From Candidatus Omnitrophota bacterium (GTDB lineage Bacteria > Omnitrophota > Gorgyraeia > Zapsychrales > Fredricksoniimonadaceae): a DNA stretch of 64,000 nucleotides. Made by a program: the position numbers and the translations under genes. Within the stretch, counting starts at the first letter, position 1; each line of letters opens with the position of its first letter. Of this stretch, positions 12,751 through 63,720 are shown piece by piece. A model generated the notes under the pieces. It ran no database searches, had not been told where the DNA came from, and saw only the letters and a program-made list of their open reading frames with translations. The stretch spans positions 5,003-69,002 of the forward strand of contig CAIUQE010000049.1 of assembly GCA_903901225.1 (NCBI GenBank). Reading direction: 5' to 3'.

Positions 12751-14865
12751 ATGTTGAGTGATTGTTTCTCTAAAGAATTATTTTCGTCGCGCCTTATGGC
12801 CGGGAGCACTGCGGCGAGTTTCTTGATCTCATTGCTAGTGCCGCCGTTGGTCATGGCGCAAACGCTTGTTCTTCCGGTTCCTGGAATGATGGTGACCCAA
12901 AGTCCGGCGTACATGCCGGTCATGACGCGCGGGCTTAAGGTCCATCCTGAAAATCCCCTTCTGTTTGATTTTATTGTGGATGCCGGTGACTCCGGTTTCG
13001 TGGTTGAAGGTCCGCAGTTCAAGGCTGAATCCGAAAAACTCATCAAATACTTTCTCGCCTCGCTCGCGGTCAAGGAAGACGACCAGTGGGTGAACCTGTC
13101 TCCCTATGAAAAAGACCGCATGATCCCTGAAAACCTGGGGAAGACCGAATTGGGTCACGACATGCTGGCGCAGGACTATATCCTCAAGCAGTTGACGGCT
13201 TCGCTGATTTATCCCGAGAAAGAGCTGGGGAAGGAATTCTGGACCAAGGTGTATGAAAAAGCTCAGGCGCAGTTTGGCAGCATTGATGTGCCGGTGGATA
13301 CGTTCAACAAGGTATGGATCACAGCCGACAAGGCGCGCGTCCTGGAACGCAATAACACGGCGTATGTTGTCGGCGCGCACCTGAAAGTCATGCTTGAGTC
13401 AGACTACGAAGCCATGTCCCGCCAGGATACCCTCGCGCGTAGGGGAGAGGCACTGCCTCGCCTCCAGGACTCGGCATCCCGGGAACTGACCAAACAGATC
13501 ATGCGCGAGGTCATCATACCCCAGATCGAAAAAGAAGTGAACGAAGGCAGGAATTTCAGCCAATTGCGCCAGATATTCTACGCCATGATCCTTTCTACCT
13601 GGTACAAGCGTGCCCTGAAAAACTCCCTTTTGAACCATGTCTACAGCAACAAGTCCAAGACCAACGGCGTCGAGAACGCTGACCCGGCGGTGAAGGAAAA
13701 GATCTACGCCCGGTATCTGGAAGCCTACCGCAAGGGCGTGTTCAACTATGTCAAGGAAGAGACTAACGCGGCGGGCGAAACGATCCCGCGTAAGTATTTC
13801 TCGGGTGGTATTGCCAGGAACCTTGGGCTGAAAGATCATGCGATGGAAGTGGTTGATAAAGCGGCAGTGGGGGATTCTTTTGAACTGAAGAATGCCGCTT
13901 TGGTCGATGCTTCGTTAGTTGATGCCGCGGAGGTAACGGGTAAAAATTTTTCAGGCAGAAAGACGCGGTGGGTGCCACCCCGCAAGCTTTTGATGAAAGA
14001 CGCCGAGAAGTCGCAAGATGCGAGTATGTCAAAGCCAACGCCGATAGGAACGCTTATAAAATTGATCGATCTGTCGGTGGAATATTTGATCAAGTGTATC
14101 GAGGTCATTAATGAAAGCGTCACTTCAGGCAATGTTCATGTTCCTGACATAAAAGATGTTACGAAAGTGGCGGCGTTGCCAAAGGATGGATCAGTCGGTC
14201 CGCGGGCCAACAGTAAAAAAAATCTGTTGCTGGATCCCACGACGCCGCTCAAGAAAGTCATGTCCGAGGTGCGCCTTGCTTTCGCCAAAGAAGATATGAC
14301 ACCGCAACAGATCCAGGATCTGGCCGTTCAGATAAAGATCTATACGTATCAAAAAAGTAATTTTTGGGATATGGGATCCTCAGCAGGAATTATTGAATAC
14401 TTTTTAAATTACGGTATCGATGCGTATGAAAAGTTTAAAAATGAACATAAAGATGATCAGGCGCGGTGTATCGCAATTTTTTTGCAGGAATTAAGCAATG
14501 GCGCTGTCTATGAAAAGACCGACCATCTTGTTGGACTGGAAGATCACAAGGGAGAGGATCTTGTCAAAGAAGTTTCGTGGAGTGTCTGGGGAGAGATGGC
14601 CAGGTCCGGGAAGACAATTCGCCAGGCCAATATTGATCCGGCGGAGGATATCAAACGCGATAGTAAAGCAGTTGATGGTGGTATTGACATCAACGGCAAG
14701 AACCTGACGCTGGATGTGACGCGCGAGGGTAAGGGTGCTGAGACGAAATTCGACCCGGCTATGGTCGCGCGTTTCGAACGCGGCGATTTCACGGGGTTCG
14801 TCCCGATCATTTTGAAGGTAACGCCGCTGGGTAACATTGGCTTGTCGCCGGGAATGGGAGGCTGA
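12751..14865 (+). CDS. Giant-paralog family member 1 (704 aa). It has a signal peptide, a conserved ~330-aa N-terminal domain (unknown family), a variable middle, and a conserved ~60-aa C-terminal tail.
   Basis: The N-domain shares LKVHPENPLLFDFIVD...KYFLASL..DLWVNLSPYEKDR...DTFNKVWI...REVIIP.IEKEVNEG.NF..LRQ....I...WYK...VFNY..EE......IPRKYFSGG with ORFs 14868, 19398, 23914 and 26969. The C-tail is DGGIDINGKNLTLDV...KFDPAMVARF...GFVPIILKVTPL. Confidence 0.85.
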   Translation: MLSDCFSKELFSSRLMAGSTAASFLISLLVPPLVMAQTLVLPVPGMMVTQSPAYMPVMTRGLKVHPENPLLFDFIVDAGDSGFVVEGPQFKAESEKLIKYFLASLAVKEDDQWVNLSPYEKDRMIPENLGKTELGHDMLAQDYILKQLTASLIYPEKELGKEFWTKVYEKAQAQFGSIDVPVDTFNKVWITADKARVLERNNTAYVVGAHLKVMLESDYEAMSRQDTLARRGEALPRLQDSASRELTKQIMREVIIPQIEKEVNEGRNFSQLRQIFYAMILSTWYKRALKNSLLNHVYSNKSKTNGVENADPAVKEKIYARYLEAYRKGVFNYVKEETNAAGETIPRKYFSGGIARNLGLKDHAMEVVDKAAVGDSFELKNAALVDASLVDAAEVTGKNFSGRKTRWVPPRKLLMKDAEKSQDASMSKPTPIGTLIKLIDLSVEYLIKCIEVINESVTSGNVHVPDIKDVTKVAALPKDGSVGPRANSKKNLLLDPTTPLKKVMSEVRLAFAKEDMTPQQIQDLAVQIKIYTYQKSNFWDMGSSAGIIEYFLNYGIDAYEKFKNEHKDDQARCIAIFLQELSNGAVYEKTDHLVGLEDHKGEDLVKEVSWSVWGEMARSGKTIRQANIDPAEDIKRDSKAVDGGIDINGKNLTLDVTREGKGAETKFDPAMVARFERGDFTGFVPIILKVTPLGNIGLSPGMGG
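13437..13465. repeat. GCGTAGGGG-hairpin family, copy 3 (degenerate stem gaggca/tgcctc), embedded in-frame in paralog 1, encoding ...ARRGEALPRLQ...
   Basis: gcgtaggggagaggcactgcctcgcctcc. It has the same 9-nt leader as the intergenic copies. It lies in the variable linker of the N-terminal domain. Confidence 0.45.
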
Positions 14866-14867
14866 TC

Positions 14868-17800
14868 ATGCGCTGTCGCGGCGTTTGTATAATAACAGCT
14901 TTCTTCTTCACTACATCCCAACTGGCATTCCTTCCGGCCAGGGGAGATGCCGCGGTTTACACACCGCCTCAAATGGGCTTTTTGACCCCAACGGCGCCCT
15001 CCCGGGATATCCTTCTCCACGGTCTTGAATTGGACCCGAATACGACCCGCAGGATGAAATTCATGTTCAGGGCTGGTGAGAAAGAGCTTTTGCCGGCCGA
15101 TGCCATGCGGCAGATAAAATATTTTTTGACCGCGCTGACCATTCCCGAGAATGACCTGTGGGTCAATTTGTCGCCGTTTGAAGCAGACCGTATCATTTCC
15201 TATCCTTTTGGCGTGACGGATATGGGACGAGGGTTTCTGGAGCAGGATTATATTTTAAAACAGTTTTGCGCGTCATTGCTTCACCCGGAAAGCCCCAGTG
15301 GCAGGGAATTCTGGGCACGGATCCGCCAGGCCGGGCTTGGATCAGCGGCATTGGACAACAATGGCCAGTTCAAATTTATCGACAAGGTATGGATCACACC
15401 GAGGGATGCCATCGTTAAACAGGATCACGGCAGGGTTTATATCCGCAAGAGCCGTCTGCAGGTCATGTTCCGGGAAGATCCCGGAGTTGTTGCCGTTTCA
15501 TCCGAAAAGATCTCCGGGATCATCAGGGAAGTCCTCTTGCCATATATTGACAGGGAGGTCAACGAAGGAAAGCTTTTTATGACACTGCGTCAGATGTACG
15601 CGGCGATGATCCTCGCGGAATGGTTCAAGCGCTACGTTGCCGGAAAGTCTGTATGGCGGCAGGCTTTCATTGGCCAGAAGAAGGTGGGCGGTCTTGATAT
15701 TGATGACCCTGCTGTTCCCCTAAAGGTTTACGGCAATTATTTAAGAGCGGTTGAAACGGGGGTTTTTAATTATGTCCATGAAGACGTGGATCCGGGGACC
15801 GGAGAAGTCATTCCACGGAAATATTTTGCCGGCGGGATCTCGGCCGGTTCAGGCCCGTCCAGCCTGAGGCATATCTTGCGTGTCGAGGACAATGATCTGC
15901 CTTCCGATTTCGCGGAAAAATCTCCTGACAAGGACACGGAGATACCGGTGTGGATGCAGGATATCCCGGCGAGGCCTGTGGATGTTAATAGTCAGCTGAA
16001 AGACCAGGTCAGGAAAGGCCTTGTCTGCCGGGTTACGCGCAAGGAGGACGGATTTGTTTTTAAACCGGAAGTCCCTTATGGCATAGAACCTGACCTGATC
16101 AGGGTGTATTCCATGACCGCGAAAACATTCGTGCTGCAAAAGCAATACGCGGCGTACCTTGAGGCGGCGCGCGCACGCCAGGCACTTTTGGATGCCATGC
16201 AACACCATGAGGAAGCGTTCAGGGATTATACGGCTTCCCGGAAGGAGGCGCTTGTGCGTATCGCTTCGGAGATCGACCTGTACCTTGTGAACGGGAGTTT
16301 TACTTTGTTCCGTAACGGACCTTTAACACATATTCGCTGGGGAACGTATCGTAGTGACAATGATCTTTCCTATTCCGGCATCTGGCTTGGTGAGCGTGTG
16401 TTGTCGGCGTTGGATCAGGATGAATTTTCCGCGTTCCTGTTGCTGGAAGCGCGCAATTTTCTGGATGGGAACAATGAAAAGATGGAAGCCTATCCTTTGT
16501 ACAGGAAGATCGCGGCGTTGTCAGGATCTTCAGGCGAAACAATACCGCTCATGGAAGGGCAGGATCAGTCCCTGACATCGTTGCGTCAAAGGCCGGAAAA
16601 CAGCCCCGGTAACAGCGCATTTTTTATTAACAGCACACTGCCTCAGGAACGCCAGCTTTACAAAGAATCTCTGGCGGCTCGTTTTGCCGGTACGGACTTG
16701 ACAGTGAATGAAAGAATGAAGGTCGTTAACGCGTTGGCGAGGATATCTGATGAAGCGCTGCGCCTGCGCCGTGAAAGCTGGCCTTTTTTGGAGGCGCAGA
16801 AGATTTCCCGCCAGGAGGATATTGACGCCGTTGCCATGGCTAAAAACCTTCTTGCGGAAAAGAACAAATACGCGTTGTTGCAAAACGAGGTTTACGAAGC
16901 ACTCTTCTCCTCTGATGAGGTCGAGTCTTTGTTGTTCAAGAAGCTTATTCCGTATGCCTGGGTCGAGCTTCTTCTTCATGAAGGTGCTTCTACCAAAAGC
17001 ATCCTTTTCCTTTGCCAGCATAGTGATGATCCGCTCGGCCAATGGGAAAAGATATGCGCTTTCAGGGCAGTTTACGAGAAAGACGGTGTGCCGCCGGCAT
17101 GGGCGCTTCTTTTGTCTTTTTCGGGGAAGAAGGTCATGGACCTGTGGGAAACCACTTTAAAAAATGAGCGAGAGGATCTGGTTCGTCAGGGACTTGACCC
17201 GTTGTGGGCCACGTATCTTGTCCTGATGCATCCACGCGATGCCGTGCGTTACTGGAATGATGACATTGAACCTAAGAAAAGAAAGATCCAGCAGGAACGC
17301 GGATTGAGCGACGCCTGGGCAACCTTTTATGCCGTGTTTGACAATGAAAGTTTGAAACACGACGATTCTCCTTTCGCGTTCCTTAGGGGGGCTGATTCCC
17401 TGAATTTGCAAGCTCCGGACCTGGCTCTTCTGCAGGATGAGGGGGTTGCGATGGGGCTTGATCTGCCTCACGACGGAAAGGTGCAATGGGAGCAACAGAT
17501 ACAGCACTGGCAAAGCGCCTTGATGAAGAAGGGTTTTGAAGAGCCTCTTTTGACGTACCTTCTGCGCGCTTATCAGAACCCGATGGAGAAAGCGGTCAAG
17601 ATCGAGGAGCTGGCACTGCTGATCAAGAGGTTCGATCCGCGGGTCAAATGGCAGGAAGCGTTATTGACAGCGTTCAAGCTTTTTCATCCGCGATCTTATG
17701 CGGACAAACAGGAGGCGCGCGGTACCGGCGATATCATCAAGCATCTTCTGTTCGGGCGCGGCAAGCGGGGGCACAGGAATTATTATCAGGGATATATTTT

Positions 17801-18659
17801 CGCTTCAAAGTTCGAACGCGACACAGCCATTATCCTGCGGTATTTCGGATTGATCGGGAATATTCAAATGGGGAAGAACTGGCAGGTGCCGATGGATCAG
17901 CTTTGCGTCGATTTCAAGTTCGAATATAAGGGCAGGCAGATCATCATGGAGCCTCACCAGGAGCCGCAGGGCCAGTTGTATCTTGTCAATCGGGCGGATA
18001 TCGAACATATACTGGGGAATGACCCGCGGACCCTGGAGTATTTGTTCGTTAATCCGAGTATGAGATCGTTGAAATTCCATCCTGATTTTCTGTCCAGAGT
18101 GGATCGGCTTTCTTTGGCTGACGTCAGAAAAGATATTCTCAGGAATCTTTGGCAGATCAATATGGGGCGGACCATCTCCAGTTACGCGGCCGACCGTGAA
18201 AATACCCTGCGTCAGTTCGAACACACGAATTTTTCCTTGTATGCCTTTGAGTCCACACAGAAACTCTATGGCATCCTTCAGGATTATTTCGATATAACGG
18301 TCACTTCAAACGATAAAAAAGCGATCTCTCGGCTTATAACGGAAGCGAATTCCAGGAGTGATTATCATATTGTCAACAGCCTGTTGATGTACTGGACCGG
18401 CATGAGCAATTTACAAAAAGCGCTTGAGGGCGAGGGCGTGTTGAAGAAGAGAGCGCGAGATCTTGCCGGCACAACGGTTGGGTCGGAGAACGGCGGTATT
18501 GATTTTGATCAGAAATACCTGGATCTGAAAGTTGAGCCTGGAGAAGAAATTCAGGACAGCTTCCATGCGCCATATCCTGCTATTTCGGACAGGGGTCTGG
18601 ATGGCTTGAGGCCTGTGATCCTTCATGTCAACGCGCGCTTTATCGATATCAGTTTGTAA
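14868..18659 (+). CDS. Giant-paralog family member 2 (1263 aa). The conserved N-domain is the most divergent copy. It has a long unique middle of unknown function and the conserved C-tail.
   Basis: N-domain: ...KYFLTALTIPENDLWVNLSPFEADR...KVWITPRDAIV...REVLLPYIDREVNEGKLF..LRQMYAAMILAEWFK...VFNYVHEDVDP.TGEVIPRKYFAGG. C-tail: NGGIDFDQKYLDLKV...RPVILHVNARF. RBS GGGAGG lies before the ATG. Confidence 0.85.
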   Translation: MRCRGVCIITAFFFTTSQLAFLPARGDAAVYTPPQMGFLTPTAPSRDILLHGLELDPNTTRRMKFMFRAGEKELLPADAMRQIKYFLTALTIPENDLWVNLSPFEADRIISYPFGVTDMGRGFLEQDYILKQFCASLLHPESPSGREFWARIRQAGLGSAALDNNGQFKFIDKVWITPRDAIVKQDHGRVYIRKSRLQVMFREDPGVVAVSSEKISGIIREVLLPYIDREVNEGKLFMTLRQMYAAMILAEWFKRYVAGKSVWRQAFIGQKKVGGLDIDDPAVPLKVYGNYLRAVETGVFNYVHEDVDPGTGEVIPRKYFAGGISAGSGPSSLRHILRVEDNDLPSDFAEKSPDKDTEIPVWMQDIPARPVDVNSQLKDQVRKGLVCRVTRKEDGFVFKPEVPYGIEPDLIRVYSMTAKTFVLQKQYAAYLEAARARQALLDAMQHHEEAFRDYTASRKEALVRIASEIDLYLVNGSFTLFRNGPLTHIRWGTYRSDNDLSYSGIWLGERVLSALDQDEFSAFLLLEARNFLDGNNEKMEAYPLYRKIAALSGSSGETIPLMEGQDQSLTSLRQRPENSPGNSAFFINSTLPQERQLYKESLAARFAGTDLTVNERMKVVNALARISDEALRLRRESWPFLEAQKISRQEDIDAVAMAKNLLAEKNKYALLQNEVYEALFSSDEVESLLFKKLIPYAWVELLLHEGASTKSILFLCQHSDDPLGQWEKICAFRAVYEKDGVPPAWALLLSFSGKKVMDLWETTLKNEREDLVRQGLDPLWATYLVLMHPRDAVRYWNDDIEPKKRKIQQERGLSDAWATFYAVFDNESLKHDDSPFAFLRGADSLNLQAPDLALLQDEGVAMGLDLPHDGKVQWEQQIQHWQSALMKKGFEEPLLTYLLRAYQNPMEKAVKIEELALLIKRFDPRVKWQEALLTAFKLFHPRSYADKQEARGTGDIIKHLLFGRGKRGHRNYYQGYIFASKFERDTAIILRYFGLIGNIQMGKNWQVPMDQLCVDFKFEYKGRQIIMEPHQEPQGQLYLVNRADIEHILGNDPRTLEYLFVNPSMRSLKFHPDFLSRVDRLSLADVRKDILRNLWQINMGRTISSYAADRENTLRQFEHTNFSLYAFESTQKLYGILQDYFDITVTSNDKKAISRLITEANSRSDYHIVNSLLMYWTGMSNLQKALEGEGVLKKRARDLAGTTVGSENGGIDFDQKYLDLKVEPGEEIQDSFHAPYPAISDRGLDGLRPVILHVNARFIDISL

Positions 18660-18672
18660 ATATTCCCGAGGG

Positions 18673-19302
18673 TTATTGGACAACAGACGGATGCATTTTC
18701 CGTTGAATGGCTTGAGTGGTTGGGTCACCAGTGGGCAAAGCGCTCAGCATTTGATCCAGGGCGTATTTGAGGTTTTTGACGTCCTCCCGTAAACCGGGAA
18801 CGTCCTGAGCGGTGATTTGCGCTTTAAAGTTGTTGAGTTGTTCATTGATATCGTCACATTGTTTGTTCAGATCAGGGATCTGATTTCGCGCGGCATCTGT
18901 TTTTTCTTCAACCTTGAGCAAGGTTGTCACGTAGTCTTTTTGCCAGCCGTTCATTGTTTTTTTCAGTGCGTCCGTTTCTTCGCGCGTTGTTTTTAAGGCA
19001 TCATTGGTTGTTGAAAGTATATGCGTGGTTTTGTCAGTCAGTTCTTTCTGGGAAGTCAGCAGGGAGCTTTGCTCGTTGAGCTGTCGTTTCAGGGTTTCGA
19101 TGTCAGCGCGCAGGGCGCGGGTCTGTTCGTTCTGATCGAGCAGTTTCATGTTGGCGGTCTTAAGGTCGTTGCGTTGCTGGTTGCAGGAAAAGTACAGGTA
19201 GAGGAGCATCGACACGGCCGCTATCGCGAGGATCCCGAGCGAGACAGGTCGCGCGGATTTCCGGATATTAGAAAGTAATAGTTGTGGTGTTTGCTTGTCC
19301 AT
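18673..19302 (-). CDS. Coiled-coil membrane protein (N-terminal TM helix, then a ~150-aa Q/K/E/L-rich coiled coil). It is embedded on the opposite strand between giant paralogs 2 and 3.
   Basis: TM LGILAIAAVSMLLYLYF, then heptad-like ...LKRQLNEQSSLLTSQKELTDKTTHIL...ETDALKKTMNGWQKDYVTTLLKVEEK.... It is the only gene interrupting the array. Confidence 0.5.
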   Translation of the reverse strand: MDKQTPQLLLSNIRKSARPVSLGILAIAAVSMLLYLYFSCNQQRNDLKTANMKLLDQNEQTRALRADIETLKRQLNEQSSLLTSQKELTDKTTHILSTTNDALKTTREETDALKKTMNGWQKDYVTTLLKVEEKTDAARNQIPDLNKQCDDINEQLNNFKAQITAQDVPGLREDVKNLKYALDQMLSALPTGDPTTQAIQRKMHPSVVQ

Positions 19303-19397
19303 GGCTGCCGTTCCAGGTCACGTTTGTTTTGCCAGGAAGTATAAACCATGATTTTTCAATAAACAAGTGTTGGATGAAAATTACCCGGAGATCACCA

Positions 19398-23819: not shown

Positions 23820-23913
23820 AAACGACAGAGTTCACGCCGATTTCACATTCAGTCATTATTGAGATGTTACACTTTTCCCAAGATCAAGTGTCGAATTAAT
23901 AATTAGAGAAGCT

Positions 23914-26871
23914 ATGAATCTTCGTAAGAAAACTTTTATGTTTCGCTTGATGGCAGGCTGGATCATTTGCAGTTTTGTGTCTTCTGCCGTGATCCCGTCG
24001 GGTGCGCATGCCCAGGCGCTTAATTTGCCGGCGCCCGGCACCCGCATTTCTTTGAGCCCCGGTTTCACGCCGCCGCTTCTTAAGGGCATCAAGGTTTTTC
24101 CCGACGATCCGTTCCGTATTGATTTTATCCTTGATAAAGGTGATTCTGCCGGAACAGATGATCAGGTCAAGACAGATTCTAACCGGCTCATCAAGTACTT
24201 CCTCGCGTCGCTCACTGTTCCCGAAAAAGACCTTTGGGTTAATCTGTCGCCGTATGAAAAAGACCGTACTGTGCCAGATGCTTTTGGCCGGACCGAGATG
24301 GGCCGTGACCTGCTGGCCCAGGATTATATGCTGAAACAGATCACAGCATCTGTTTTCTCCCCGGATGGTGAACTCGGCAGGGCATTTTGGGCCAGGGTTT
24401 ATGCCGAAGCTCAAAAGCGTTACGGCACAACGGATATTCCGGTGGATACTTTTAACAAGGTCTGGATCATGGCGGACAAAGCCGTTGTTTACGACAACAA
24501 AGACACGGCTTTTGTTGCCGAAAGCCGCTTGAAGGTTTTGCTTGAAGAGGATTACCTGGCCTTGAAGCAGGAAGCGGGGGAGGGCCATGGTGACGCCCAC
24601 ACACTGGCTTCCAATGTGATCCGTGAGGTGATAATTCCCGCTCTTGAGAAAGAAGTCAATGAAGGCCGGAATTTCAGCACATTGCGACAGGTGTATCGGT
24701 CCCTGATCCTGGCGATATGGTACAGGAAGAAATTGCAAGGTGGGATCCTGACGCGGGCTTATGTTGGCAGGAACAAGGTGGCAGGCATCAATATCCGTGA
24801 CCCTTTTGAAAACCAGAAGATCTACAGCCGCTATGTGCAGGCATTCCGGGATGGCGCGTTTAATTACATTAAAGAAGAGGTGGACCGTTCTTCCGGGCAG
24901 ATGATCCCGCGGAAATATTTCTCCGGAGGCTTGGGTTTTATGGACGCGGCGGAGCACGTTGTCAGTTTGCCTATGAGTTACAGCGTTATGCCAGCTGTTG
25001 ACAAAGGACAGGGATGCTGTCACATCACGACACGGCTACAACCCCTTTCCAGTCCAGAACGGGTACTGGCCGCTGGCCATATTTTGTTGATACCTGACGG
25101 GAAGAACAGCACGCGCGTGGAGATGGGGATCCCGCCGGATGTCAGACTCTCTATGGTCGAGAAGATGCGCAAGGCCGAAGATTTTTCCATGACGAGCGAT
25201 GGTCAGGGATCCAGGCGCCTGAGATTCAGGATCAACAGTTCGGTAGAGAAGATCAGGAGTTTTCTGAATTTTGTTCCCTGGGAGCGGCATGCGGCCAAGG
25301 TCCTGGTGGCCGGGACAATGGTCTTTTCGTTTGTTGCGCTTTCATCACAGGTGCCGGAACGCGCCATCACCGTGGTGGACATGGTGCTGGTCGCGTTTAT
25401 CCTGCTTCTGGAATTGCTGGAGCGCCAGGAAAAGAGATTTCTTTCGGACCATGATTATTGGCTGAAGGTGCTGGAACGTTTCTATGACCAGGGGGTGTTC
25501 TCTAACGGTCATTCCGCACAGGAAGTGATGAGATTTTATCGTCGCTATTATCAGGAATTTGTGGACAACCTGGATGATGACCGGGAAGAAGAGACCCTGG
25601 AGTTGCTGGTCGGGACTTTGCCTGAGAAGGATATTCTGGATCTGACACACACGCCGCGCACAAAGTTCGAGGAGCGTCTCGGGTGGGCCTGGAGCAGGCG
25701 TGCGGAGAAATATAAGGAATTTATGAAGGCCCATCAAGGCTATGGGCACGTATTCCAAGCCAGCGGCCAGGAGAATTTGAAGGGTTTATCCCAGGAATTC
25801 GTGACACAGGCGTTGCAATTTTATAATACCCAGGACCATGCGGTCAGGTATTTTCTGAGCAAAACAGAGCGGGACGATCTGGCCAGGTTCCTGGCCGGGC
25901 ATATACCGGCCATACAAAAGTCCCGGATCATTGATGTGGGACCGCACCAGCCAAGCGTTATTCAGCAGTTGATGTACTGGGATCTTGTCTACCAGGCCGT
26001 GGATACGTTTTCATCGTCGTCAAAGGATGATTCCCAATCGACTGAAAAAGAGATGTCGATGAAAATAAGGAATGAGCTGGAAGGATTCGGCTTTGATTGG
26101 CGCAACGGGAAAGTCTTCTGGGATCCGCTGAAGAACAGGCATGCTGAATGGGATCCGGACATCTCATGGGTTCCAAAGGATGGTGGGTTGGATGTCAAGG
26201 AAATGGGAGACTTGCCATCTCTTGAAATTGAAGGCATGTTGCCTTATACAGCGTCATCACATGCCTTGTTCCTGAGTGTGGTCGACATTAAAGGACGCCG
26301 TCTACCCGTGGTTATTAAGCAGTATGATGATGTATCAGGGGGTGTAGGTTATTATGTTATGGCGTTTGTTCCTGGGGAAGCAAGGACATTATCGAGAATC
26401 AGTTCTTTGGAGAGGGACGGATTCCTGCCCCTTGATCTGGTAGATAAACGTAAGCAGGTCACCAGGTTCTTTGTTAAAAAATTTTATCATCCTCCTGAGG
26501 AATTTATTTATACGCCCAAGGGTAATGTGATCCCCATTGATCCGGAAGAGTTTGATAGCATGGCCGGAACGTTGAAGGTGCCCTCCGTAGAGCCTGCCAA
26601 GGCATATATTTGGGGCCAGTTAGGTGGGCCGGAATTCTATGGCCTTGTCAAATTTTCAATAAATGGCAGCGGTCAGACGCATGAGAACGAGGGAGGGGTC
26701 GATCTGACCACGGGCACGATAGACTGGCGGGCCCAAGATCAGGGGGGAAGAGAAGGATCGGATACCGACTTTGCCATGTTGCGGGGCCTGGACAGGGTCA
26801 CAGGTATTTCGCCCATGATCGTGAGTATCCAACCCGTGACGGACATGAAATCATTTTTCCATATAAAATAA
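23914..26871 (+). CDS. Giant-paralog family member 4 (985 aa). It has a signal peptide, the conserved N-domain, a unique middle containing a hydrophobic helix, and the conserved C-tail.
   Basis: N-domain: ...IKVFPDDPFRIDFILDKGDS...KYFLASLTVPEKDLWVNLSPYEKDR...DTFNKVWIMADKAVVY...REVIIPALEKEVNEGRNFSTLRQVYRSLILAIWYRKK...AFNYIKEEVD..SGQMIPRKYFSGG. Hydrophobic stretch VLVAGTMVFSFVALSS...VLVAFILLLELL. C-tail: EGGVDLTTGTIDW...FAMLRGL...GISPMIVSIQPVTDMKSF. Confidence 0.85.
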   Translation: MNLRKKTFMFRLMAGWIICSFVSSAVIPSGAHAQALNLPAPGTRISLSPGFTPPLLKGIKVFPDDPFRIDFILDKGDSAGTDDQVKTDSNRLIKYFLASLTVPEKDLWVNLSPYEKDRTVPDAFGRTEMGRDLLAQDYMLKQITASVFSPDGELGRAFWARVYAEAQKRYGTTDIPVDTFNKVWIMADKAVVYDNKDTAFVAESRLKVLLEEDYLALKQEAGEGHGDAHTLASNVIREVIIPALEKEVNEGRNFSTLRQVYRSLILAIWYRKKLQGGILTRAYVGRNKVAGINIRDPFENQKIYSRYVQAFRDGAFNYIKEEVDRSSGQMIPRKYFSGGLGFMDAAEHVVSLPMSYSVMPAVDKGQGCCHITTRLQPLSSPERVLAAGHILLIPDGKNSTRVEMGIPPDVRLSMVEKMRKAEDFSMTSDGQGSRRLRFRINSSVEKIRSFLNFVPWERHAAKVLVAGTMVFSFVALSSQVPERAITVVDMVLVAFILLLELLERQEKRFLSDHDYWLKVLERFYDQGVFSNGHSAQEVMRFYRRYYQEFVDNLDDDREEETLELLVGTLPEKDILDLTHTPRTKFEERLGWAWSRRAEKYKEFMKAHQGYGHVFQASGQENLKGLSQEFVTQALQFYNTQDHAVRYFLSKTERDDLARFLAGHIPAIQKSRIIDVGPHQPSVIQQLMYWDLVYQAVDTFSSSSKDDSQSTEKEMSMKIRNELEGFGFDWRNGKVFWDPLKNRHAEWDPDISWVPKDGGLDVKEMGDLPSLEIEGMLPYTASSHALFLSVVDIKGRRLPVVIKQYDDVSGGVGYYVMAFVPGEARTLSRISSLERDGFLPLDLVDKRKQVTRFFVKKFYHPPEEFIYTPKGNVIPIDPEEFDSMAGTLKVPSVEPAKAYIWGQLGGPEFYGLVKFSINGSGQTHENEGGVDLTTGTIDWRAQDQGGREGSDTDFAMLRGLDRVTGISPMIVSIQPVTDMKSFFHIK

Positions 26872-26968
26872 TTCGTGTTTGCTGCGGATATGTCTGTGCA
26901 GAATTATGTTGTCGTTGGCAAGATACAAACATGTTACAACATAAAAGGATATATTTCATATTTTAGGC

Positions 26969-29900
26969 ATGCTCAAAAAGACAGTTTCCTCTTTTTTGTT
27001 GTTTGTTTTCTGCCTGACCAGTGTGGCAGCCCCGGACGGCCGTGTGTTCGGCCAGACCGTGGCTGTCCTTCCGGCTCCTGGAATGTTGGTGACCCCAAGT
27101 CCGGCGTATATGCCGGTCATGGCGCGCGGGTTAAAAGTCCATCCGGAAAACCCCCTTTTGTTTGATTTTATTGTGGATGTCGGTGATCCCGGTTTCGTCG
27201 TTGAAGGATCTCAGTTCAAGGCTGAGTCCGAAAAACTCATCAAATATTTCCTCGCTTCGTTGACAGTTCCCGAAAAAGATCTTTGGGTGAATCTTAGCCC
27301 TTACGAAAAAGACAGGATCGTTCCGGAAGCTTTTGGCCGGACAGAAATGGGGCGGGATTTGCTCGCCCAGGACTACATTTTGAAACAGATAACAGCATCG
27401 CTCATTTACCCGGATGAGAAGACAGGCAAGGAGTTCTGGGATAAGGTCTACGCCCAGGCGTTGAAACGTTATGGCACTACGGATGTCCCGGTAGACACGT
27501 TCAATAAAGTGTGGATCGTCCCCGAGAAAGCCACGGTTTATGAGAACAATGATGCGGCTTATGTCGTTGAATCCGGATTAAAGGTTATGCTGGAGAGTGA
27601 TTACGTAGCCATGTCCCATCAGAAGGACATGGCGGAGTCCTCGGCACCCGCCGAGGATGTGACCATGTCCCATCAGAAGGACATGGCGGAGTCCTCGGCT
27701 CCCGCCATGCAAAATGAGGAAATGGTGCGTAGGGGCGGGTCTCAGACCCGCCCACTTGAGACGGCTACGCAAGAATTAGCCAAACCGGTTCTTCGTGAAA
27801 TCATCATTCCCATTCTCGAAAAAGAAGTGAACGAGGGCAAGAATTTCACAGCGTTACGCCAGGTCTACAGCTCGCTGATCCTCGCGACATGGTACAAGCG
27901 GAAGTTCAAGGCCGGAATTTTCGGCCAGGCCTACGTCGATCAACAGAAGACCGCTGGCGTAGACATTGCTGATAAGAACGAGAAAGAGAAGATCTGGGCG
28001 CAGTATGTTGAGGCGTTCCAAAAGGGTACCTATAACCTGATCAGAGAGGAAGTTGACCCAACAACGCAAGCGATAGTGCCAAGAAAGTATTTTTCAGGTG
28101 GCTGTGATCTGGCGATGGATGTGTTCAAGACGGCCTCGTCTGCTGTATTACCAGTGTTGGCTGATCGCGCGGCCATTGTTGAGGTGAAGGTCGATTACGC
28201 ACAGGAGGATCAGGAGGGATCTGACACGCCTCCCAGTTTGACCCGTATTGACGATATTAAGCGGCTTTTTACCGGGCTCAATGATCTGGACGACCGGCTG
28301 GGAGTTCCTCATTATAATTCCAGATGGCATCGTGAAGGAGGTTATGACGCCACACTCAAGGATCATTTACAGCGGATATTGAATGTGAAGAATGATATCC
28401 TCAGCCATAATTTTCCAGGGAGCGATCAGGATCAGGAGCTGATCTCCCTGGTGAGAGCGTATGCGTCCAGGGACAATGATGAACTGGATGCCATGATCTT
28501 GTTGCATGATCATGGGAAAAAAGAAGCGGCTTTCAGGAATAAGCATGGCGATATGGGGTTTAAGGGGCATGAAGAAAAAGCTTATCGTTCGCTCATTAAT
28601 AACAAGGTGATGTATAAAGGGAAAGCCTTGTCCCATAGGATCAAAATGGCTGTTAAATATCACGATATGCACTGGAAGATCAATTATGCCCATCCGGGAG
28701 AGTTTGAAAAAACAATCCACATGATGCGGAAGGATTTTAATGGGTCACTGGATGACTTTGAAGAAGCCTGCGAGTTTATAACAGCATTCTCTGTGATCGA
28801 TGTTCTGGGATCTTTATGGGAAGGCGATCGTCGGGGTGATCTGGGTAGCGTCAGAACATTCCATGAGCATTTTCTGGCCTGGAAAAAGGCGCGCAAGAAG
28901 TTTGACAGGGCGGAGGATCATTCCGTTGTTTTTGGAGGCGGGAAGTTAAATTTGGATCATCCGCTGGTCATATCAGGGCGGATCATTGGCATTGAGGATT
29001 ACGACAATGTCGGTGGATCAAATTTGGCGGATTATGCCAGGAAGAAAGATGTTAAACGTATTTATTTTGACCTGGACCTGACGGTCTTCCGGTCCATGGG
29101 GTATGTTTCTTCCAGCCAGTGGTTTGAGCACGCGTCTAAAGAGTTCGGACTGGAACAGACCTTATGGTGGTGGGGTAACAGGGGTCATGAGGCGCGCCAG
29201 ATCGATAACGATTTTTTCTTCAGGTTAATGGATCCCGGGATCCCGGCCATGATCGAAGGTTTGAAAGCACAGGGCATTGAATGCGTTGGATTGACCGCGC
29301 GCGATAATGACAAGGATGAACCGCGCACGCAGGAGATCCTTGCGAGATTTGGCGTTGAAATGAATGATGTGATCTTTGCGTCCGGCGCGGCGGCCAAGGC
29401 CCAGGCTGTGGATGATTATGAGAAAGGTCATGGCCGTTTGCGGGCCTTGTTTGTGGAAGACAGTTTCTTTAATTTGGAGAAATTTTTGCCTGTTCACGCG
29501 CATGTGGATGCTATTTTTTACCGGCCTGTGAATGCCAATCAGGAAGATGAATGGGATCATAAGGTCTATCTTGAAAAAGCCCGTGCGGACACGTCCAACG
29601 GGCATAAGTTTGAATATTATTTCAATGCCGTGGTCAAGATCCTGGAATTAAAGGGCATTACTCGTGAGATCGCCTATGAGCAGTTGCATCAGATCCATCA
29701 CGAGCTTCTGCGGTTGCCAGACCCCAAGCCGGCAGGGTATGACAAATTAATTCAGGTCCTGGAGATCAGTAAGAAAGGCCAGTCGTATTTGTTCCATGAT
29801 CCAGAGGCGCGGGAATTGCGGGAGAAGAGATCCAAAGACAGGGCGATGCTCAGGGATCCCGGCGGTATCGACCTTACCCCCGGCAAGATCGCCCTGAAGA

Positions 29901-30043
29901 CCAGAGATATTGGTGAGGCGATCAAGTTCAACAGTGATCCTGCCATGCTCCAGAGATTACAAAAGGCTTCTGGCGTGACTCCCGTCATTATTGGCATTCA
30001 TTCATTGGACAGCCTCCGGAAGTTCATGAATGTTGGCCCATGA
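26969..30043 (+). CDS. Giant-paralog family member 5 (1024 aa). Its conserved N-domain carries a tandem duplication and a palindromic-repeat insertion. Its cargo has an HD-like segment and a HAD-superfamily phosphatase-like segment. It ends with the conserved C-tail.
   Basis: The N-domain is ~88% identical at the nucleotide level to paralog 1 over the first ~200 nt compared. HD-like: AMILLHDHGKKE. HAD motif I: RIYFDLDLTVF (29066-29086), with later FVEDS. C-tail: DPGGIDLTPGKIALK...KFNSDPAMLQRL...GVTPVIIGIHSLDSLRKF. Confidence 0.85.
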   Translation: MLKKTVSSFLLFVFCLTSVAAPDGRVFGQTVAVLPAPGMLVTPSPAYMPVMARGLKVHPENPLLFDFIVDVGDPGFVVEGSQFKAESEKLIKYFLASLTVPEKDLWVNLSPYEKDRIVPEAFGRTEMGRDLLAQDYILKQITASLIYPDEKTGKEFWDKVYAQALKRYGTTDVPVDTFNKVWIVPEKATVYENNDAAYVVESGLKVMLESDYVAMSHQKDMAESSAPAEDVTMSHQKDMAESSAPAMQNEEMVRRGGSQTRPLETATQELAKPVLREIIIPILEKEVNEGKNFTALRQVYSSLILATWYKRKFKAGIFGQAYVDQQKTAGVDIADKNEKEKIWAQYVEAFQKGTYNLIREEVDPTTQAIVPRKYFSGGCDLAMDVFKTASSAVLPVLADRAAIVEVKVDYAQEDQEGSDTPPSLTRIDDIKRLFTGLNDLDDRLGVPHYNSRWHREGGYDATLKDHLQRILNVKNDILSHNFPGSDQDQELISLVRAYASRDNDELDAMILLHDHGKKEAAFRNKHGDMGFKGHEEKAYRSLINNKVMYKGKALSHRIKMAVKYHDMHWKINYAHPGEFEKTIHMMRKDFNGSLDDFEEACEFITAFSVIDVLGSLWEGDRRGDLGSVRTFHEHFLAWKKARKKFDRAEDHSVVFGGGKLNLDHPLVISGRIIGIEDYDNVGGSNLADYARKKDVKRIYFDLDLTVFRSMGYVSSSQWFEHASKEFGLEQTLWWWGNRGHEARQIDNDFFFRLMDPGIPAMIEGLKAQGIECVGLTARDNDKDEPRTQEILARFGVEMNDVIFASGAAAKAQAVDDYEKGHGRLRALFVEDSFFNLEKFLPVHAHVDAIFYRPVNANQEDEWDHKVYLEKARADTSNGHKFEYYFNAVVKILELKGITREIAYEQLHQIHHELLRLPDPKPAGYDKLIQVLEISKKGQSYLFHDPEARELREKRSKDRAMLRDPGGIDLTPGKIALKTRDIGEAIKFNSDPAMLQRLQKASGVTPVIIGIHSLDSLRKFMNVGP
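27611..27706 (+). repeat. In-frame tandem duplication, 54-bp unit x 1.8 copies, encoding MSHQKDMAESSAPAEDVT / MSHQKDMAESSAPA, inside the N-domain linker of paralog 5
   Basis: Unit 1 is 27611-27664 and unit 2 is 27665-27706. There is a single mismatch (gcaccc versus gctccc). Confidence 0.8.
27727..27754. repeat. GCGTAGGGG-hairpin family, copy 4 (stem gggcgggtc / gacccgccc, loop tca), embedded in-frame in paralog 5, encoding ...VRRGGSQTRPLE...
   Basis: gcgtaggggcgggtctcagacccgcccac. This is the same 29-mer as the intergenic copy at 3940-3968 except for 2 loop nucleotides. Confidence 0.65.
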
Positions 30044-43923: not shown

Positions 43924-44070
43924 TGAAGTTTCCCTCCTTATGAATGTTGATGGGCTGAGGTACTTTTTTCCCTGAAAATATGAAGTTAGGAGGGGAGAGT
44001 TTATTTCATATCCCCGTTAGTCGTTCAAAGGGCGTTACCTGACCGGTCGGTATACCTTAAGGGGACGTTT

Positions 44071-44463: not shown

Positions 44464-44563
44464 TCTAAGCGATTTTTATTCGTTTTAACGGTAGCATGAG
44501 CGGGTTGGGGATTTTATCAATATAAGATCGATAAGGGACTGCTGGAATAAGGTTTTTTGAAAT

Positions 44564-47873: not shown

Positions 47874-47926
47874 ACGGGCTCTGTGAGCGCGCATTGTTTT
47901 TTAGTGGTAAATGGGCCAGGTGAATA

Positions 47927-49417: not shown

Positions 49418-49498
49418 AGGATTTATTGTCGTATTACTTGAATTGCAGGATAAACGGGCCGTTTTGTTCTAAACATGTATCGTTTGAAAGTGAGATCG

Positions 49499-52141: not shown

Positions 52142-52188
52142 TGCCTAAGAATTAATGGTGGCGGATTAATACAGCGATGCCGTAGTGT

Positions 52189-58038: not shown

Positions 58039-58046
58039 ATCAAAGG

Positions 58047-63714: not shown

Positions 63715-63720
63715 TGCCAC

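What the first reader, a model, noticed from the sequence alone, without database searches (positions are those of the whole stretch)
12751..30043. Tandem array of five giant paralogous secreted proteins with conserved N- and C-terminal caps and unrelated enzymatic cargo
Five consecutive + strand genes (704, 1263, ~1470, 985 and 1024 aa) sit 3-100 nt apart. They share (i) a signal peptide, (ii) a ~330-aa N-terminal domain with invariant blocks (LKVHPE.P..FDFI.D; KYFLASLTVPEKDLWVNLSPYEKDR; DTFNKVWI; REVIIP.LEKEVNEG.NF..LRQVY; PRKYFSGG), and (iii) a ~60-aa C-terminal tail. Between these caps the sequences are unrelated to one another and differ in length by 350-1100 aa. Paralogs 3 and 5 carry recognisable nucleotide/nucleic-acid-directed catalytic motifs (a SAM-MTase-like segment, an HD domain and a CDA-like deaminase; an HD-like segment and HAD DxDxT). 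I do not recognise the N-domain as any described family. The architecture (constant trafficking module plus swappable enzymatic module plus constant tail) resembles polymorphic toxin or effector cassettes. However, there are no small immunity-like ORFs after any member, so the targets may be non-kin cells or extracellular substrates, or these may be surface-displayed nucleotide-scavenging enzymes. No secretion-system genes occur in the window.
Basis: partly seen in the sequence, partly recalled or inferred. Interest (0 to 1): 0.92.

Follow-up and report, generated by a model that had tools for sequence, protein, structure and literature searches.

The report
Omnitrophota exported proteins with two caps
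Five neighbouring genes belong to a very large, undescribed protein family found only in Omnitrophota nanobacteria, in which a signal peptide, a conserved head and a conserved tail enclose shuffled enzyme modules that look built to act inside another cell.

Summary
Five + strand genes (704, 1263, about 1481, 985 and 1024 aa) share a signal peptide, an N-terminal domain of about 330 aa (33-56% identity, E 1e-63 to 1e-145) and a tail of about 60 aa. Their middles are unrelated.

They are diverged paralogs, not an assembly artefact. They belong to a huge family: 7,958 clusters at 50% identity, and every named source is an Omnitrophota MAG.

The N-cap always sits just after a signal peptide. Complete genes with an N-cap almost always carry the C-tail too. 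Neither cap matches Pfam, NCBIfam or PADLOC. A medium-confidence model of the N-cap has no relative in PDB or BFVD.

Cargo is hypervariable and shuffled between members. It consists mainly of enzyme types that normally work in the cytoplasm (methyltransferases, HD, deaminase, radical SAM/B12, NUDIX, GNAT, ATP-grasp, kinases, SNF2 helicase, ADP-ribosyltransferase). A family-specific peptide motif, D-x-A-M, marks the cap/cargo boundaries.

There are no immunity genes, no conserved neighbours, no secretion genes in the window and no phage association.

Best reading, by inference only: these are Sec-exported modular effectors of host-dependent Omnitrophota, and the caps are shared handles for export, delivery or processing. 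The family is not a member of the polymorphic-toxin, MARTX or T9SS families. I rate it a new variant of a known kind, and interesting.

The parts
12751..14865 (+). Paralog A (704 aa). Signal peptide ends ..VMA|Q. N-cap nt 12751-13809, cargo 13810-14676 (helical, no family hit), C-tail 14677-14865. DHAM at 13834-13845 and DPAM at 14752-14763.
   Evidence: Third-position GC (GC3) is 0.69-0.70 in the caps and 0.49 in the cargo.
14868..18659 (+). Paralog B (1263 aa), the most divergent member. N-cap 14868-15836, cargo 15837-18491 (no hit anywhere), divergent C-tail 18492-18659.
   Evidence: Its best N-cap relative in the database is 43% identical.
19374..23819 (+). Paralog C (1481 aa from ATG 19374; the ORF opens at GTG 19284). 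N-cap 19374-20444, cargo 20445-23579, C-tail 23580-23819, DKAM at 23556-23567.
21045..21368 (+). C cargo module 1: class I SAM methyltransferase fold.
   Evidence: Pfam Methyltransf_11, E 4e-10, and Methyltransf_25.
21768..22193 (+). C cargo module 2: HD phosphohydrolase (HD_3, YfbR-like). HD motif ALMHDIAEG at 21906-21932.
   Evidence: Pfam HD_3, E 3.5e-22.
22638..23060 (+). C cargo module 3: zinc deaminase of the CDA/dCMP type. The HAE motif (22779-22805) and the PCxxC motif (22995-23018) are intact.
   Evidence: Pfam dCMP_cyt_deam_1, E 1.3e-6, above the curated cut-off. Weak hits to dCTP deaminase models..
23914..26871 (+). Paralog D (985 aa). N-cap 23914-24930, cargo 24931-26691, C-tail 26692-26871. 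The cargo contains a strongly hydrophobic helical hairpin at 25291-25419.
   Evidence: Part of the cargo is 44% identical to the cargo of P0216 and L007.
26969..30043 (+). Paralog E (1024 aa). N-cap 26969-28102, cargo 28103-29860, C-tail 29861-30043. DLAM at 28106-28117, DRAM at 29837-29848, DPAM at 29936-29947. HD-like motifs at 28493-28522 and 28652-28678. HAD-like DxDxT at 29060-29089.
   Evidence: The cargo is 76% identical to residues 873-1411 of the 1476-aa protein P0125.

Best explanation
The five genes are diverged paralogs of one very large, uncharacterised superfamily restricted to Omnitrophota. Each protein has four parts:
1. A cleavable Sec (signal peptidase I) signal peptide.
2. 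A conserved alpha/beta 'N-cap' of about 330 aa with no known relative.
3. A hypervariable cargo of one to many modules that are swapped between members. Most are enzyme types that need cytoplasmic substrates or cofactors (SAM, NAD, ATP, dNTPs, Fe-S, B12, DNA).
4. A conserved 'C-cap' of about 65 aa (GGIDL...F.FDPAM...G.TPVII.I.P...FLG).

A family-specific D-x-A-M tetrapeptide sits in flexible sequence just after the N-cap, just before the C-cap and inside the C-cap.

Proposed mechanism (inferred):
- The polypeptide is exported unfolded through Sec.
- The two caps act as a shared handle recognised by export, delivery or processing machinery encoded elsewhere in the genome. T2SS/Tad-like systems are typical of the phylum.
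- The cargo acts in or on the host or prey cell of these host-dependent nanobacteria. For example, paralog C's HD phosphohydrolase, deaminase and methyltransferase could attack nucleotide pools.
- D-x-A-M sites may be where cargo is released from the caps.

Cap homology also provides the recombination substrate that lets cargo be exchanged.

What is shown: the family, its architecture, its phyletic range, cargo diversity and shuffling, and the motif enrichment. What is inferred: export beyond the inner membrane, delivery into other cells, and processing.
For: - **Architecture in the window:**
- **Family size and position of the N-cap:** 7,958 clusters at 50% identity with E<=1e-3, of which 6,133 have E<=1e-30. 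In nearly all of the 150 listed hits the N-cap lies at about residues 30-400 (a few start near residue 90-130), in proteins of 490-4,875 aa.
- **Taxonomy:** hits in 558 or more stretches of genomes from the GTDB species set. The best 80 loci are all Omnitrophota MAGs (some are labelled 'uncultured Planctomycetales'), with up to 9 genes from one MAG among those 80. Almost every source-given name says Omnitrophota or Omnitrophica; the few exceptions name no phylum or sit on short, apparently mis-binned contigs.
- **Caps are coupled:** 119 of 139 representatives carry the tail. In the loci, 74 ORFs have both caps, and the N-only ORFs are cut by a locus end, a frameshift or an IS element.
- **Signal peptides:** 80 of 82 have a hydrophobic h-region, 75 of 82 a basic n-region..YAQ/RAQ-type cleavage motifs are common, and 1 of 82 has a lipobox.
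- **Cargo census:** methyltransferases, HD, deaminase, radical SAM with B12-binding, NUDIX, GNAT, HATPase_c, ATP-grasp, PPDK_N, EPSP synthase, cytidylate kinase, SNF2 helicase, mTERF, ART-PolyVal, HEAT and TPR. Each occurs in only 1-4 of 74 members.
- **Module shuffling:** E's cargo recurs at 76% identity behind about 500 extra residues in P0125, and its first module alone recurs in P0172.
- **Cargo swap signature:** in paralog A the caps have GC3 0.69-0.70 and the cargo 0.49.
- **D-x-A-M motif:** 10.3 per 1000 aa after the N-cap and 15.6 per 1000 before the tail. In cargo, 125 observed against 18 expected. In non-family ORFs of the same loci, 0.058 per 1000. E-x-A-M is depleted. Codon usage at the motif matches background, so it is a peptide-level signal.
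- **Flexible context:** the motif region has pLDDT below 50 in both models.
- **Lifestyle and parallel cargo:** Omnitrophota are reported as host-dependent or predatory, and their giant 'Archaeovorin' proteins carry a similar Pfam repertoire (HATPase_c, Radical_SAM, NUDIX, HAD_2, PPDK_N, HEAT, TPR) next to T2SS/Tad-like loci (bioRxiv 10.1101/2023.11.21.568195; PMC10066038).
Against: - There is no experimental or expression evidence.
- No secretion or delivery genes lie in the window. No neighbour family is conserved (at most 9 of 80 loci), so the proposed machinery is hypothetical.
- Fe-S and B12 enzymes exported unfolded would have to acquire cofactors elsewhere.
- Signal peptides were judged by rule-based features, not by a trained predictor.
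- The N-cap is very strongly conserved, with many invariant polar residues. It could itself be an enzyme or a structural unit rather than a trafficking handle.
- D-x-A-M is present after the N-cap in only 51% of members and before the tail in only 23%. It could be a docking or helix-capping motif rather than a cleavage site.
- The N-cap model is of medium confidence (pLDDT 76), so 'novel fold' is provisional. AFDB could not be searched.
Confidence: 0.5

Rival explanations
1. These are components of the surface coat, or anchored exo-enzymes. The caps fix the proteins to the Omnitrophota envelope or 'velamen', for example by N-cap and C-cap docking to each other or to a surface polymer. The cargo then works outside the cell on prey surface polymers or in adhesion, as proposed for the giant Archaeovorins.
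For: - Signal peptides are present in nearly all members checked (80 of 82).
- HEAT and TPR repeats and some sugar-active modules (NAD-dependent epimerase, phosphoglucomutase, ATPgrasp_ST) occur in the cargo.
- The first part of the C-tail is modelled with pLDDT of about 78 beside a disordered cargo. This hints that it packs against something.
- The literature interprets the related domain repertoire of the giant proteins as extracellular.
Against: - Most cargo types need ATP, SAM, NAD(P), dNTPs, DNA or reducing Fe-S chemistry, which are unavailable outside a cell.
- No known anchoring domain or sorting signal (SLH, LPXTG, PEP-CTERM, T9SS CTD) was found.
- 84% of cargos have no strongly hydrophobic segment.
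Confidence: 0.25
2. These proteins have a periplasmic or self-directed function. The family would be an expanded set of periplasmic or envelope-maintenance or scavenging enzymes used by the producer itself. This includes the first reader's nucleotide-scavenging idea.
For: - Sec signal peptides are present, and no dedicated outer-membrane secretion genes lie nearby.
- C and E carry nucleotide-directed modules.
- The genomic context is housekeeping.
Against: - The cargo is extremely diverse and is shuffled between members.
- Cofactor-dependent cytoplasmic enzyme types are implausible in a periplasm.
- There are thousands of divergent clusters and many copies per small genome.
Confidence: 0.1
3. 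These are classical kin-directed polymorphic toxins with cognate immunity proteins.
For: - Conserved ends with variable enzymatic domains.
- Deaminase and ADP-ribosyltransferase modules occur, as in known toxin repertoires.
- The genes are arrayed in tandem.
Against: - The variable part is internal and is followed by a conserved tail.
- There is no room for immunity genes. The gaps are A-to-B 2 nt, C-to-D 94 nt and D-to-E 97 nt.
- No conserved small neighbour is found in 80 loci.
- There are no Rhs, CdiA, PAAR, MafB or LXG domains.
- Much of the cargo is not obviously toxic (epimerase, EPSP synthase, HEAT).
Confidence: 0.05
4. The array is an assembly artefact or a collapsed repeat.
For: The source is a metagenome-derived sequence, and the conserved blocks are repeated.
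Against: - The paralogs differ at 14-65% of nucleotide positions per window, and no shared exact run exceeds 21 nt.
- The same proteins recur on 16-23 public contigs.
- Tandem pairs and triples occur in other MAGs.
Confidence: 0.01

Closest known systems
MARTX (multifunctional autoprocessing RTX) toxins
   Same: Conserved N-terminal and C-terminal regions bracket a variable, shuffled array of cytoplasm-acting effector domains. Those domains are released by proteolysis after delivery. Proteins are large, and the effector sets are mosaic between strains.
   Different: MARTX caps are glycine-rich repeat regions thousands of residues long. MARTX toxins are exported by T1SS without a Sec signal peptide and carry a CPD (Peptidase_C80) domain. 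None of these features is present here. Here the caps are a 330-aa globular domain and a 65-aa tail with no sequence or fold relative.
Polymorphic toxin systems (Rhs/YD, CdiA, MafB, LXG; Zhang et al. 2012, PMC3482391)
   Same: A constant trafficking part with recombining enzymatic modules. Deaminase and ADP-ribosyltransferase domains occur among the cargo. Genes are arrayed in tandem.
   Different: In those systems the toxin domain is at the extreme C-terminus and is followed by an immunity gene and orphan cassettes. Here the variable part is internal, a conserved tail follows, and no immunity genes or known trafficking domains are present.
T9SS cargo proteins of Bacteroidota (Sec signal peptide plus conserved C-terminal domain)
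   Same: A Sec signal peptide plus a short conserved C-terminal module shared by many otherwise unrelated proteins of one phylum.
   Different: There is no match to T9SS CTD models. A second obligatory conserved module lies at the N-terminus. The phylum is different. The cargo consists of cytoplasmic-type enzymes rather than hydrolases or adhesins.
Omnitrophota giant proteins, 'Archaeovorins' (West-Roberts et al. 2023 preprint; Kizina et al. 2022, as cited)
   Same: Same phylum. The Pfam content overlaps strikingly (methyltransferases, Radical_SAM, NUDIX, HATPase_c, PPDK_N, HAD, HEAT, TPR, GNAT). N-terminal signal peptides are followed by an 'unannotated N-terminal region'.
   Different: Archaeovorins exceed 30,000 aa, have many transmembrane helices and SecA-like domains, and lie next to T2SS/Tad-like loci. 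The window proteins are 0.7-1.5 kaa and mostly soluble, with no secretion genes nearby. Whether the giants carry the same N-cap and C-tail was not testable here.
Polyvalent proteins of phages and conjugative elements (Iyer et al. 2017, from my own knowledge)
   Same: Long proteins that string together many unrelated enzymatic domains meant to act in another cell's cytoplasm. One family member carries the ART-PolyVal domain.
   Different: Polyvalent proteins lack signal peptides and travel with DNA in virions or through conjugation. This family is chromosomal and essentially absent from viral contigs (5 loci in 2.9 million contigs).

Membership tests
Polymorphic toxin systems | The variable toxin domain lies at the extreme C-terminus. 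| tested here: not met
   The variable segment is internal. All five proteins end in a C-terminal tail, as do 119 of 139 family representatives (B's tail is divergent).
Polymorphic toxin systems | An immunity gene lies immediately downstream, often followed by orphan toxin/immunity cassettes. | tested here: not met
   Gaps are 2, 94 and 97 nt, and E is followed 71 nt later by a PEBP-family gene. No neighbour family is conserved in 80 loci.
Polymorphic toxin systems | A recognised N-terminal trafficking domain or repeat scaffold is present (Rhs/YD, haemagglutinin repeats, PAAR, LXG, MafB-N, TPS). | tested here: not met
   No Pfam or NCBIfam hit outside C's three enzyme domains.
MARTX toxins | Glycine-rich A/B/C repeat regions, a CPD autoprocessing domain, and T1SS export without a signal peptide. 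| tested here: not met
   There are no RTX or Peptidase_C80 hits. Sec-type signal peptides are present. The window has no T1SS genes other than a truncated AcrB-family gene at its start.
T9SS cargo | A C-terminal domain matching Por_Secre_tail/TIGR04183 or the type B CTD. | tested here: not met
   No Pfam or NCBIfam match to the tail at E<=0.1.
Sorting-signal families (LPXTG, PEP-CTERM, GlyGly-CTERM, MYXO-CTERM) | A C-terminal motif followed by a transmembrane helix and a basic cluster. | tested here: not met
   The tails end in ..P.T.L..FLG plus 0-30 polar residues, with no transmembrane helix or basic cluster.
Archaeovorin-type giant proteins of Omnitrophota | Length above about 30,000 aa with many transmembrane helices and SecA-like domains. 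| tested here: not met
   The window proteins are 704-1481 aa, and the family members seen here reach 4,875 aa or more. No SecA domains were found.
Archaeovorin-type giant proteins of Omnitrophota | Characteristic domain repertoire (methyltransferases, SAM enzymes, NUDIX, glycosyl transferases and hydrolases, peptidases). | tested here: inconclusive
   The repertoire overlaps for methyltransferase, Radical_SAM, NUDIX, HATPase_c, PPDK_N, HEAT and TPR (compared with 36 and 56). Glycoside hydrolases and peptidases were not prominent in the 74 members scanned.
Archaeovorin-type giant proteins of Omnitrophota | They share the N-cap and C-tail described here. | not testable with these tools
The preprint only says that the N-terminal regions lack identifiable domains.
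Polyvalent proteins of mobile elements | Encoded on phages, plasmids or conjugative elements, with no signal peptide. | tested here: not met
   Only 5 loci in 2.9 million viral contigs. The flanks are housekeeping genes. Signal peptides are present.

The most novel reading that the evidence does not exclude
The N-cap and C-tail together form a previously unknown two-ended targeting signal for an Omnitrophota-specific protein delivery route. D-x-A-M is the site at which a dedicated protease frees polyprotein-like cargo. The famous giant 'Archaeovorin' ORFs are the extreme end of this same superfamily. If so, one shared mechanism would explain how these nanobacteria deploy hundreds of cytoplasmic-type enzymes against host cells.
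Probability: 0.2. Interest if true: 0.9.

Novelty: new variant of a known kind. Interest (0 to 1): 0.75.

Why it matters
Omnitrophota are ubiquitous, uncultured, ultra-small bacteria thought to live off other cells, and how they attack or manipulate hosts is unknown. This work defines a family of roughly 8,000 clusters (at 50% identity) with two diagnostic caps. That gives a sequence handle for cataloguing a putative effector arsenal across the phylum. It also allows searches for the matching export machinery by phylogenetic profiling, and a test of whether the enigmatic giant genes are built on the same chassis. The caps and the D-x-A-M motif are concrete targets for structural, proteomic and heterologous-expression experiments. 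The cargo set is a large reservoir of divergent nucleotide-, protein- and sugar-modifying enzymes.

Tried and rejected

2. **Cargo of A, B, D and E.** phmmer of the B, D and E cargos against PDB sequences gave nothing. A's cargo gave no family hit in the full-length scans.

3. **Searching with the C-tail alone.** The aim was to find proteins that have the tail but not the N-cap. The search returned only 17 short fragments from contig ends, which is uninformative.

4. **Conserved neighbours, immunity genes or secretion genes near family members.** None found.

5. **Even-number rule for transmembrane helices between the caps.** The crude hydropathy scan was too noisy to use. It showed only that 84% of cargos lack strongly hydrophobic segments.

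6. **Phase variation at the SGG junction.** A G8 tract frameshifts one relative, but G runs of 7 or more occur in only 4 of 86 genes. Rejected as a general feature.

7. **N-cap-only proteins as a separate class.** The two examined in detail were disrupted genes, one by a frameshift and one by an IS256-like insertion.

8. **D-x-A-M as a nucleotide-level signal, such as an internal start context.** Rejected, because synonymous codons follow background usage.

9. **Cap-to-cap docking.** The full-length AlphaFold model of A was too poor (pLDDT 61) to show this, and no coordinates or PAE were available.

10. **Literature.** Searches found no description of this family.

Full report
**1. The observation**

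ORF listing and translation confirm five long + strand ORFs:
- A: 12751-14865, 704 aa.
- B: 14868-18659, 1263 aa.
- C: ends at 23819. It is 1511 aa from GTG 19284. The probable start is ATG 19374, giving 1481 aa, with the signal peptide MKKTIAFLVLVSFF...
- D: 23914-26871, 985 aa.
- E: 26969-30043, 1024 aa.

I split each protein at the conserved PRKYF[SA]GG and at the last GG[IV]D and ran pairwise BLASTP:
- N-terminal parts (323-378 aa): 33-56% identical, E 1e-63 to 1e-145.
- Middles (284-1040 aa): no match better than E 0.19.
- Tails (55-79 aa): weak but consistent similarity, E 1e-8 to 0.5.

The multiple alignment shows about 75 invariant columns in the N-domain, plus G-G-x-D, G and P-x-I in the tail.

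The genes are not a collapsed repeat. Codon-aligned nucleotide identity between N-domains is 35-86% per 20-codon window, and the longest shared exact run is 21 nt. Four of the proteins (A, B, D, E) were looked up and each recurs on 16-23 public contigs, the longest 75 kb.

- The B-to-C gap is 624-714 nt. It holds a - strand 209-aa ORF (18673-19302) with an N-terminal hydrophobic segment and a coiled coil.
- The quoted blocks are conserved rather than invariant.
- E's HD and HAD assignments rest on motifs and sub-threshold hits only.

**2. What the five genes belong to**

A search with E's N-domain returned 1,416 proteins. Nearly all that carry a source name are 'hypothetical protein, Candidatus Omnitrophota/Omnitrophica'.

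An exhaustive HMMER scan of 1.84 billion cluster representatives (50% identity) found 7,958 proteins at E<=1e-3 and 6,133 at E<=1e-30. In almost all of the 150 listed hits the domain lies at about residues 30-400 (a few start near residue 90-130), in proteins of 490-4,875 aa.

The best 80 loci are all Omnitrophota MAGs. Several are deposited as 'uncultured Planctomycetales'.

Paralog B is a divergent lineage. Its best relative is 43% identical, again from Omnitrophota.

Only 5 loci were found in 2.9 million viral contigs.

The window's flanks are ordinary chromosomal genes:
- Upstream: AcrB, spore-photoproduct-lyase-like, tRNA U5-methyltransferase-like, metallo-beta-lactamase fold, AhpC, Nramp, seryl-tRNA synthetase, a response regulator and RsmB.
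- Downstream: PEBP, ThiC, radical SAM, thioredoxin reductase-like, UbiE, chorismate-binding enzyme, citrate synthase, leucyl aminopeptidase and fumarase.

**3. The two caps go together**

I built HMMs of the N-domain and of the tail and searched all ORFs of the 80 loci plus the window.
- 107 ORFs carry the N-cap, 81 carry the tail, and 74 carry both.
- The N-only ORFs are those that run off a locus end or are frameshifted.
- Among the 139 representatives, 119 end in the tail.

The tail consensus is (D-x-A-M)-x4-5-GGIDL-x6-L-x5-G-x3-F-x-F-DPAM-x3-L-x2-A-x-G-x-TPVII-x-I-x-P-x3-L-x2-FLG, followed by 0-30 variable residues.

Apparent 'N-cap-only' proteins were checked in two cases:
- P0055 has one extra G in a G8 tract at the SGG codons. 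With the frame restored it reads KYFSGGYEFTGIDHAMK..., and the next ORF is an 886-aa deaminase-bearing cargo.
- P0071 has an IS256-like transposase inserted right after KYFSGG. It is followed by 876-aa and 892-aa cargo ORFs, and the second ends in the tail.

Most 20-kb loci hold one member (60 loci). Eighteen hold two and two hold three, so the window's five is the largest cluster seen. One MAG (MBPbin6) contributes nine genes among the top 80 loci alone.

**4. What the caps are**

Sequence-based searches found nothing:
- No Pfam, NCBIfam or PADLOC model matches either cap.
- A profile of 43 N-caps finds nothing in PDB sequences.

AlphaFold2 with that alignment gives a medium-confidence model (pLDDT 75.9, pTM 0.75). 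It has three beta-hairpins interleaved with helical segments, plus a disordered insert.

Structure-based searches with that model also found nothing:
- Foldseek against PDB and BFVD finds nothing at E<=1e-3.
- AFDB was unavailable.

Provisionally, the N-cap has no known structural relative.

Many invariant polar residues suggest a constrained binding or catalytic surface. Examples are WVNLSPYEKDR, DYxLKQ, NKVW, EVNEGxNFxxLRQ and PRKYFSGG. This looks like more than a passive linker.

In a full-length model of A (pLDDT 61), the start of the tail (residues 641-660) reaches a pLDDT of about 78 next to a cargo at 30-45. This hints that the tail packs against the N-cap. Contacts could not be inspected.

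**5. Export**

All five proteins start with a basic n-region, a hydrophobic h-region and a small-x-small|Q site: A ..VMA|Q, C ..TYA|Q, D ..AHA|Q.

Among the 82 representatives with an intact start:
- 80 have the hydrophobic h-region.
- 75 have K or R in the n-region.
- ..YAQ/RAQ is the commonest motif before the conserved LPxPG.
- Only one has a lipobox.

This is a rule-based reading. No trained predictor was available.

Of 179 cargos, 84% have no strongly hydrophobic segment. D is an exception, with a helical hairpin at aa 460-502.

**6. Cargo**

In the window, only C has significant Pfam domains:
- Class I methyltransferase, E 4e-10.
- HD_3 (YfbR-like phosphohydrolase), E 3.5e-22.
- dCMP_cyt_deam_1, E 1.3e-6. 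The HAE and PCxxC motifs are intact.

The cargos of B, D and E have no sequence relatives in the PDB.

Pfam scans of 74 further members found:
- Enzymes of nucleotide, cofactor and small-molecule chemistry: methyltransferases, Radical_SAM with B12-binding, NUDIX, GNAT, HATPase_c, ATP-grasp, PPDK_N/PEP-utilizers, cytidylate kinase and ART-PolyVal.
- Sugar and central-metabolism enzymes: NAD-dependent epimerase, EPSP synthase, aldo-keto reductase, phosphoglucomutase and alpha/beta-hydrolase.
- Nucleic-acid-associated modules: SNF2 helicase and mTERF.
- Repeat modules: HEAT and TPR.

Each type occurs in only 1-4 members.

Modules are recombined between members:
- E's cargo recurs at 76% identity as residues 873-1411 of the 1476-aa protein P0125, behind about 500 unrelated residues.
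- E's first module alone recurs at 47% identity in P0172.
- Part of D's cargo recurs at 44% identity in P0216 and L007.

Composition also points to swapping. In paralog A the caps have GC3 0.69-0.70 and the cargo 0.49. Gene C as a whole (45-46% GC) is well below the flanks (57%).

**7. A family-specific motif**

The tetrapeptide D-x-A-M was counted in 171 full-length members:

| Region | Frequency |
|---|---|
| 70 residues after the N-cap | 10.3 per 1000 aa |
| 15 residues before GGIDL | 15.6 per 1000 aa |
| Inside the tail | conserved as DPAM |
| Cargo interior | 0.84 per 1000 aa (125 observed, 18 expected) |
| N-cap | 0.11 per 1000 aa |
| Non-family ORFs of the same loci | 0.058 per 1000 aa (11 observed, 19 expected) |

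E-x-A-M is depleted (4 observed against about 20 expected). Synonymous codon usage at the D and A positions matches background, so this is a peptide-level signal.

The motif lies in segments with pLDDT below 50. Window examples are A DHAM (aa 362), E DLAM (aa 380), E DRAM (aa 957) and C DKAM (aa 1395).

I read it as a candidate processing or docking site. Nothing here distinguishes between the two. It is present after the N-cap in only 51% of members and before the tail in only 23%.

**8. Mechanism**

Shown:
- A phylum-restricted superfamily with signal peptide, N-cap, shuffled cargo and C-cap.
- No linked immunity genes, secretion genes or other conserved neighbours. The commonest neighbour family occurs in 9 of 80 loci.
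- No secretion genes in the window. The 44-64 kb part is a glycan/lipid-modification island.

Inferred:
- The cargo enzymes need cytoplasmic substrates and cofactors, yet sit behind Sec signal peptides. Their site of action is therefore most plausibly the cytoplasm of another cell.
- This fits the host-dependent or predatory lifestyle proposed for Omnitrophota (PMC10066038). It also fits the similar domain repertoire of their giant 'Archaeovorin' proteins, which lie next to T2SS/Tad-like loci (bioRxiv 10.1101/2023.11.21.568195; bioRxiv 10.64898/2026.06.07.730766).
- The caps would be the common handle for export, delivery or processing, and the homology that lets cargo be exchanged.

My probabilities:
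- Real family with this architecture: about 0.95.
- Exported across the inner membrane: about 0.8.
- Effectors acting in or on other cells: about 0.5.
- D-x-A-M is a cleavage site: about 0.3.

**9. Comparison with known systems**

The closest analogue in logic is MARTX: conserved ends, a mosaic of internal effectors, and proteolytic release. However, there are no RTX repeats, no CPD and no T1SS.

The family fails the defining tests for polymorphic toxins, which require a terminal toxin, a downstream immunity gene and a known trafficking domain. It also fails the tests for T9SS cargo and for sortase- or exosortase-type sorting signals.

It is not phage-borne, unlike polyvalent proteins.

Its relation to the Archaeovorins is the most interesting open point and could not be tested here.

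None of the papers I could search describes these caps.

**10. Verdict**

The family is not a polymorphic-toxin system, and nucleotide scavenging is unlikely.

I rate it a new variant of a known kind: secreted modular effectors built on novel caps. Interest is 0.75. It is held back from a higher score only because export beyond the inner membrane, delivery and processing are all inferred.

Noticed in passing
window 18673-19302 (- strand): A 209-aa ORF on the opposite strand sits in the 624-714 nt gap between paralogs B and C. It has an N-terminal hydrophobic segment (SLGILAIAAVSMLLYLYF) and a long coiled coil. It gives only weak coiled-coil Pfam hits and has no homolog in the 80 related loci.
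   Followed up: partly
window 44000-64000: A low-GC island (33-46% GC against about 57% in the flanks) of co-directional envelope-modification genes. It contains a PMT_2 glycosyltransferase, two GT2 enzymes, a polysaccharide deacetylase, an amine oxidase, three GDSL-like lipases, two B12-binding radical SAM enzymes, one further radical SAM enzyme and two SPASM radical SAM enzymes. It has no secretion genes.
   Followed up: partly
window 27611-27706 (paralog E aa 215-246): An 18-aa tandem duplication (MSHQKDMAESSAPAEDVT MSHQKDMAESSAPA) lies inside the disordered insert of E's N-cap, the region with pLDDT below 50 in the model.
   Followed up: no
window 13810-14676 compared with 12751-13809 and 14677-14865: In paralog A the cargo has GC3 0.49 and both caps have GC3 0.69-0.70. 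This is the composition expected if a foreign cargo was recently inserted between resident caps. Gene C as a whole is 45-46% GC.
   Followed up: partly
L086 7900-8000; L087 1692-9792: The cap/cargo junction is a breakage point in relatives. In L086 a G8 tract at the SGG codons carries a +1 frameshift that separates the N-cap from an 886-aa deaminase cargo, and the same protein is found on two contigs. In L087 an IS256-like transposase is inserted directly after KYFSGG. G7 tracts at this site occur in 4 of 86 genes.
   Followed up: yes
window 25291-25419 (paralog D aa 460-502): Two adjacent, strongly hydrophobic helices (AAKVLVAGTMVFSFVALSS / AITVVDMVLVAFILLLELL) lie inside an otherwise soluble cargo. 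They may form a membrane-inserting hairpin.
   Followed up: no
window 32257-34077 (- strand) and 10414-11025 (+ strand): Two ORFs, of 606 aa and 203 aa, flank the array and have no Pfam hit.
   Followed up: no
window 1-64000: The 64-kb window contains no tRNA gene and no Rfam family at gathering threshold. This includes no TPP riboswitch call upstream of thiC (30678).
   Followed up: partly
locus of P0055 (JGI 3300050821, 246-kb contig): A family member there is followed by a SurA-like Rotamase_2 gene on the opposite strand. The same domain is reported as a conserved component of the T2SS-like loci next to Omnitrophota giant genes. This is a single anecdotal case.
   Followed up: no
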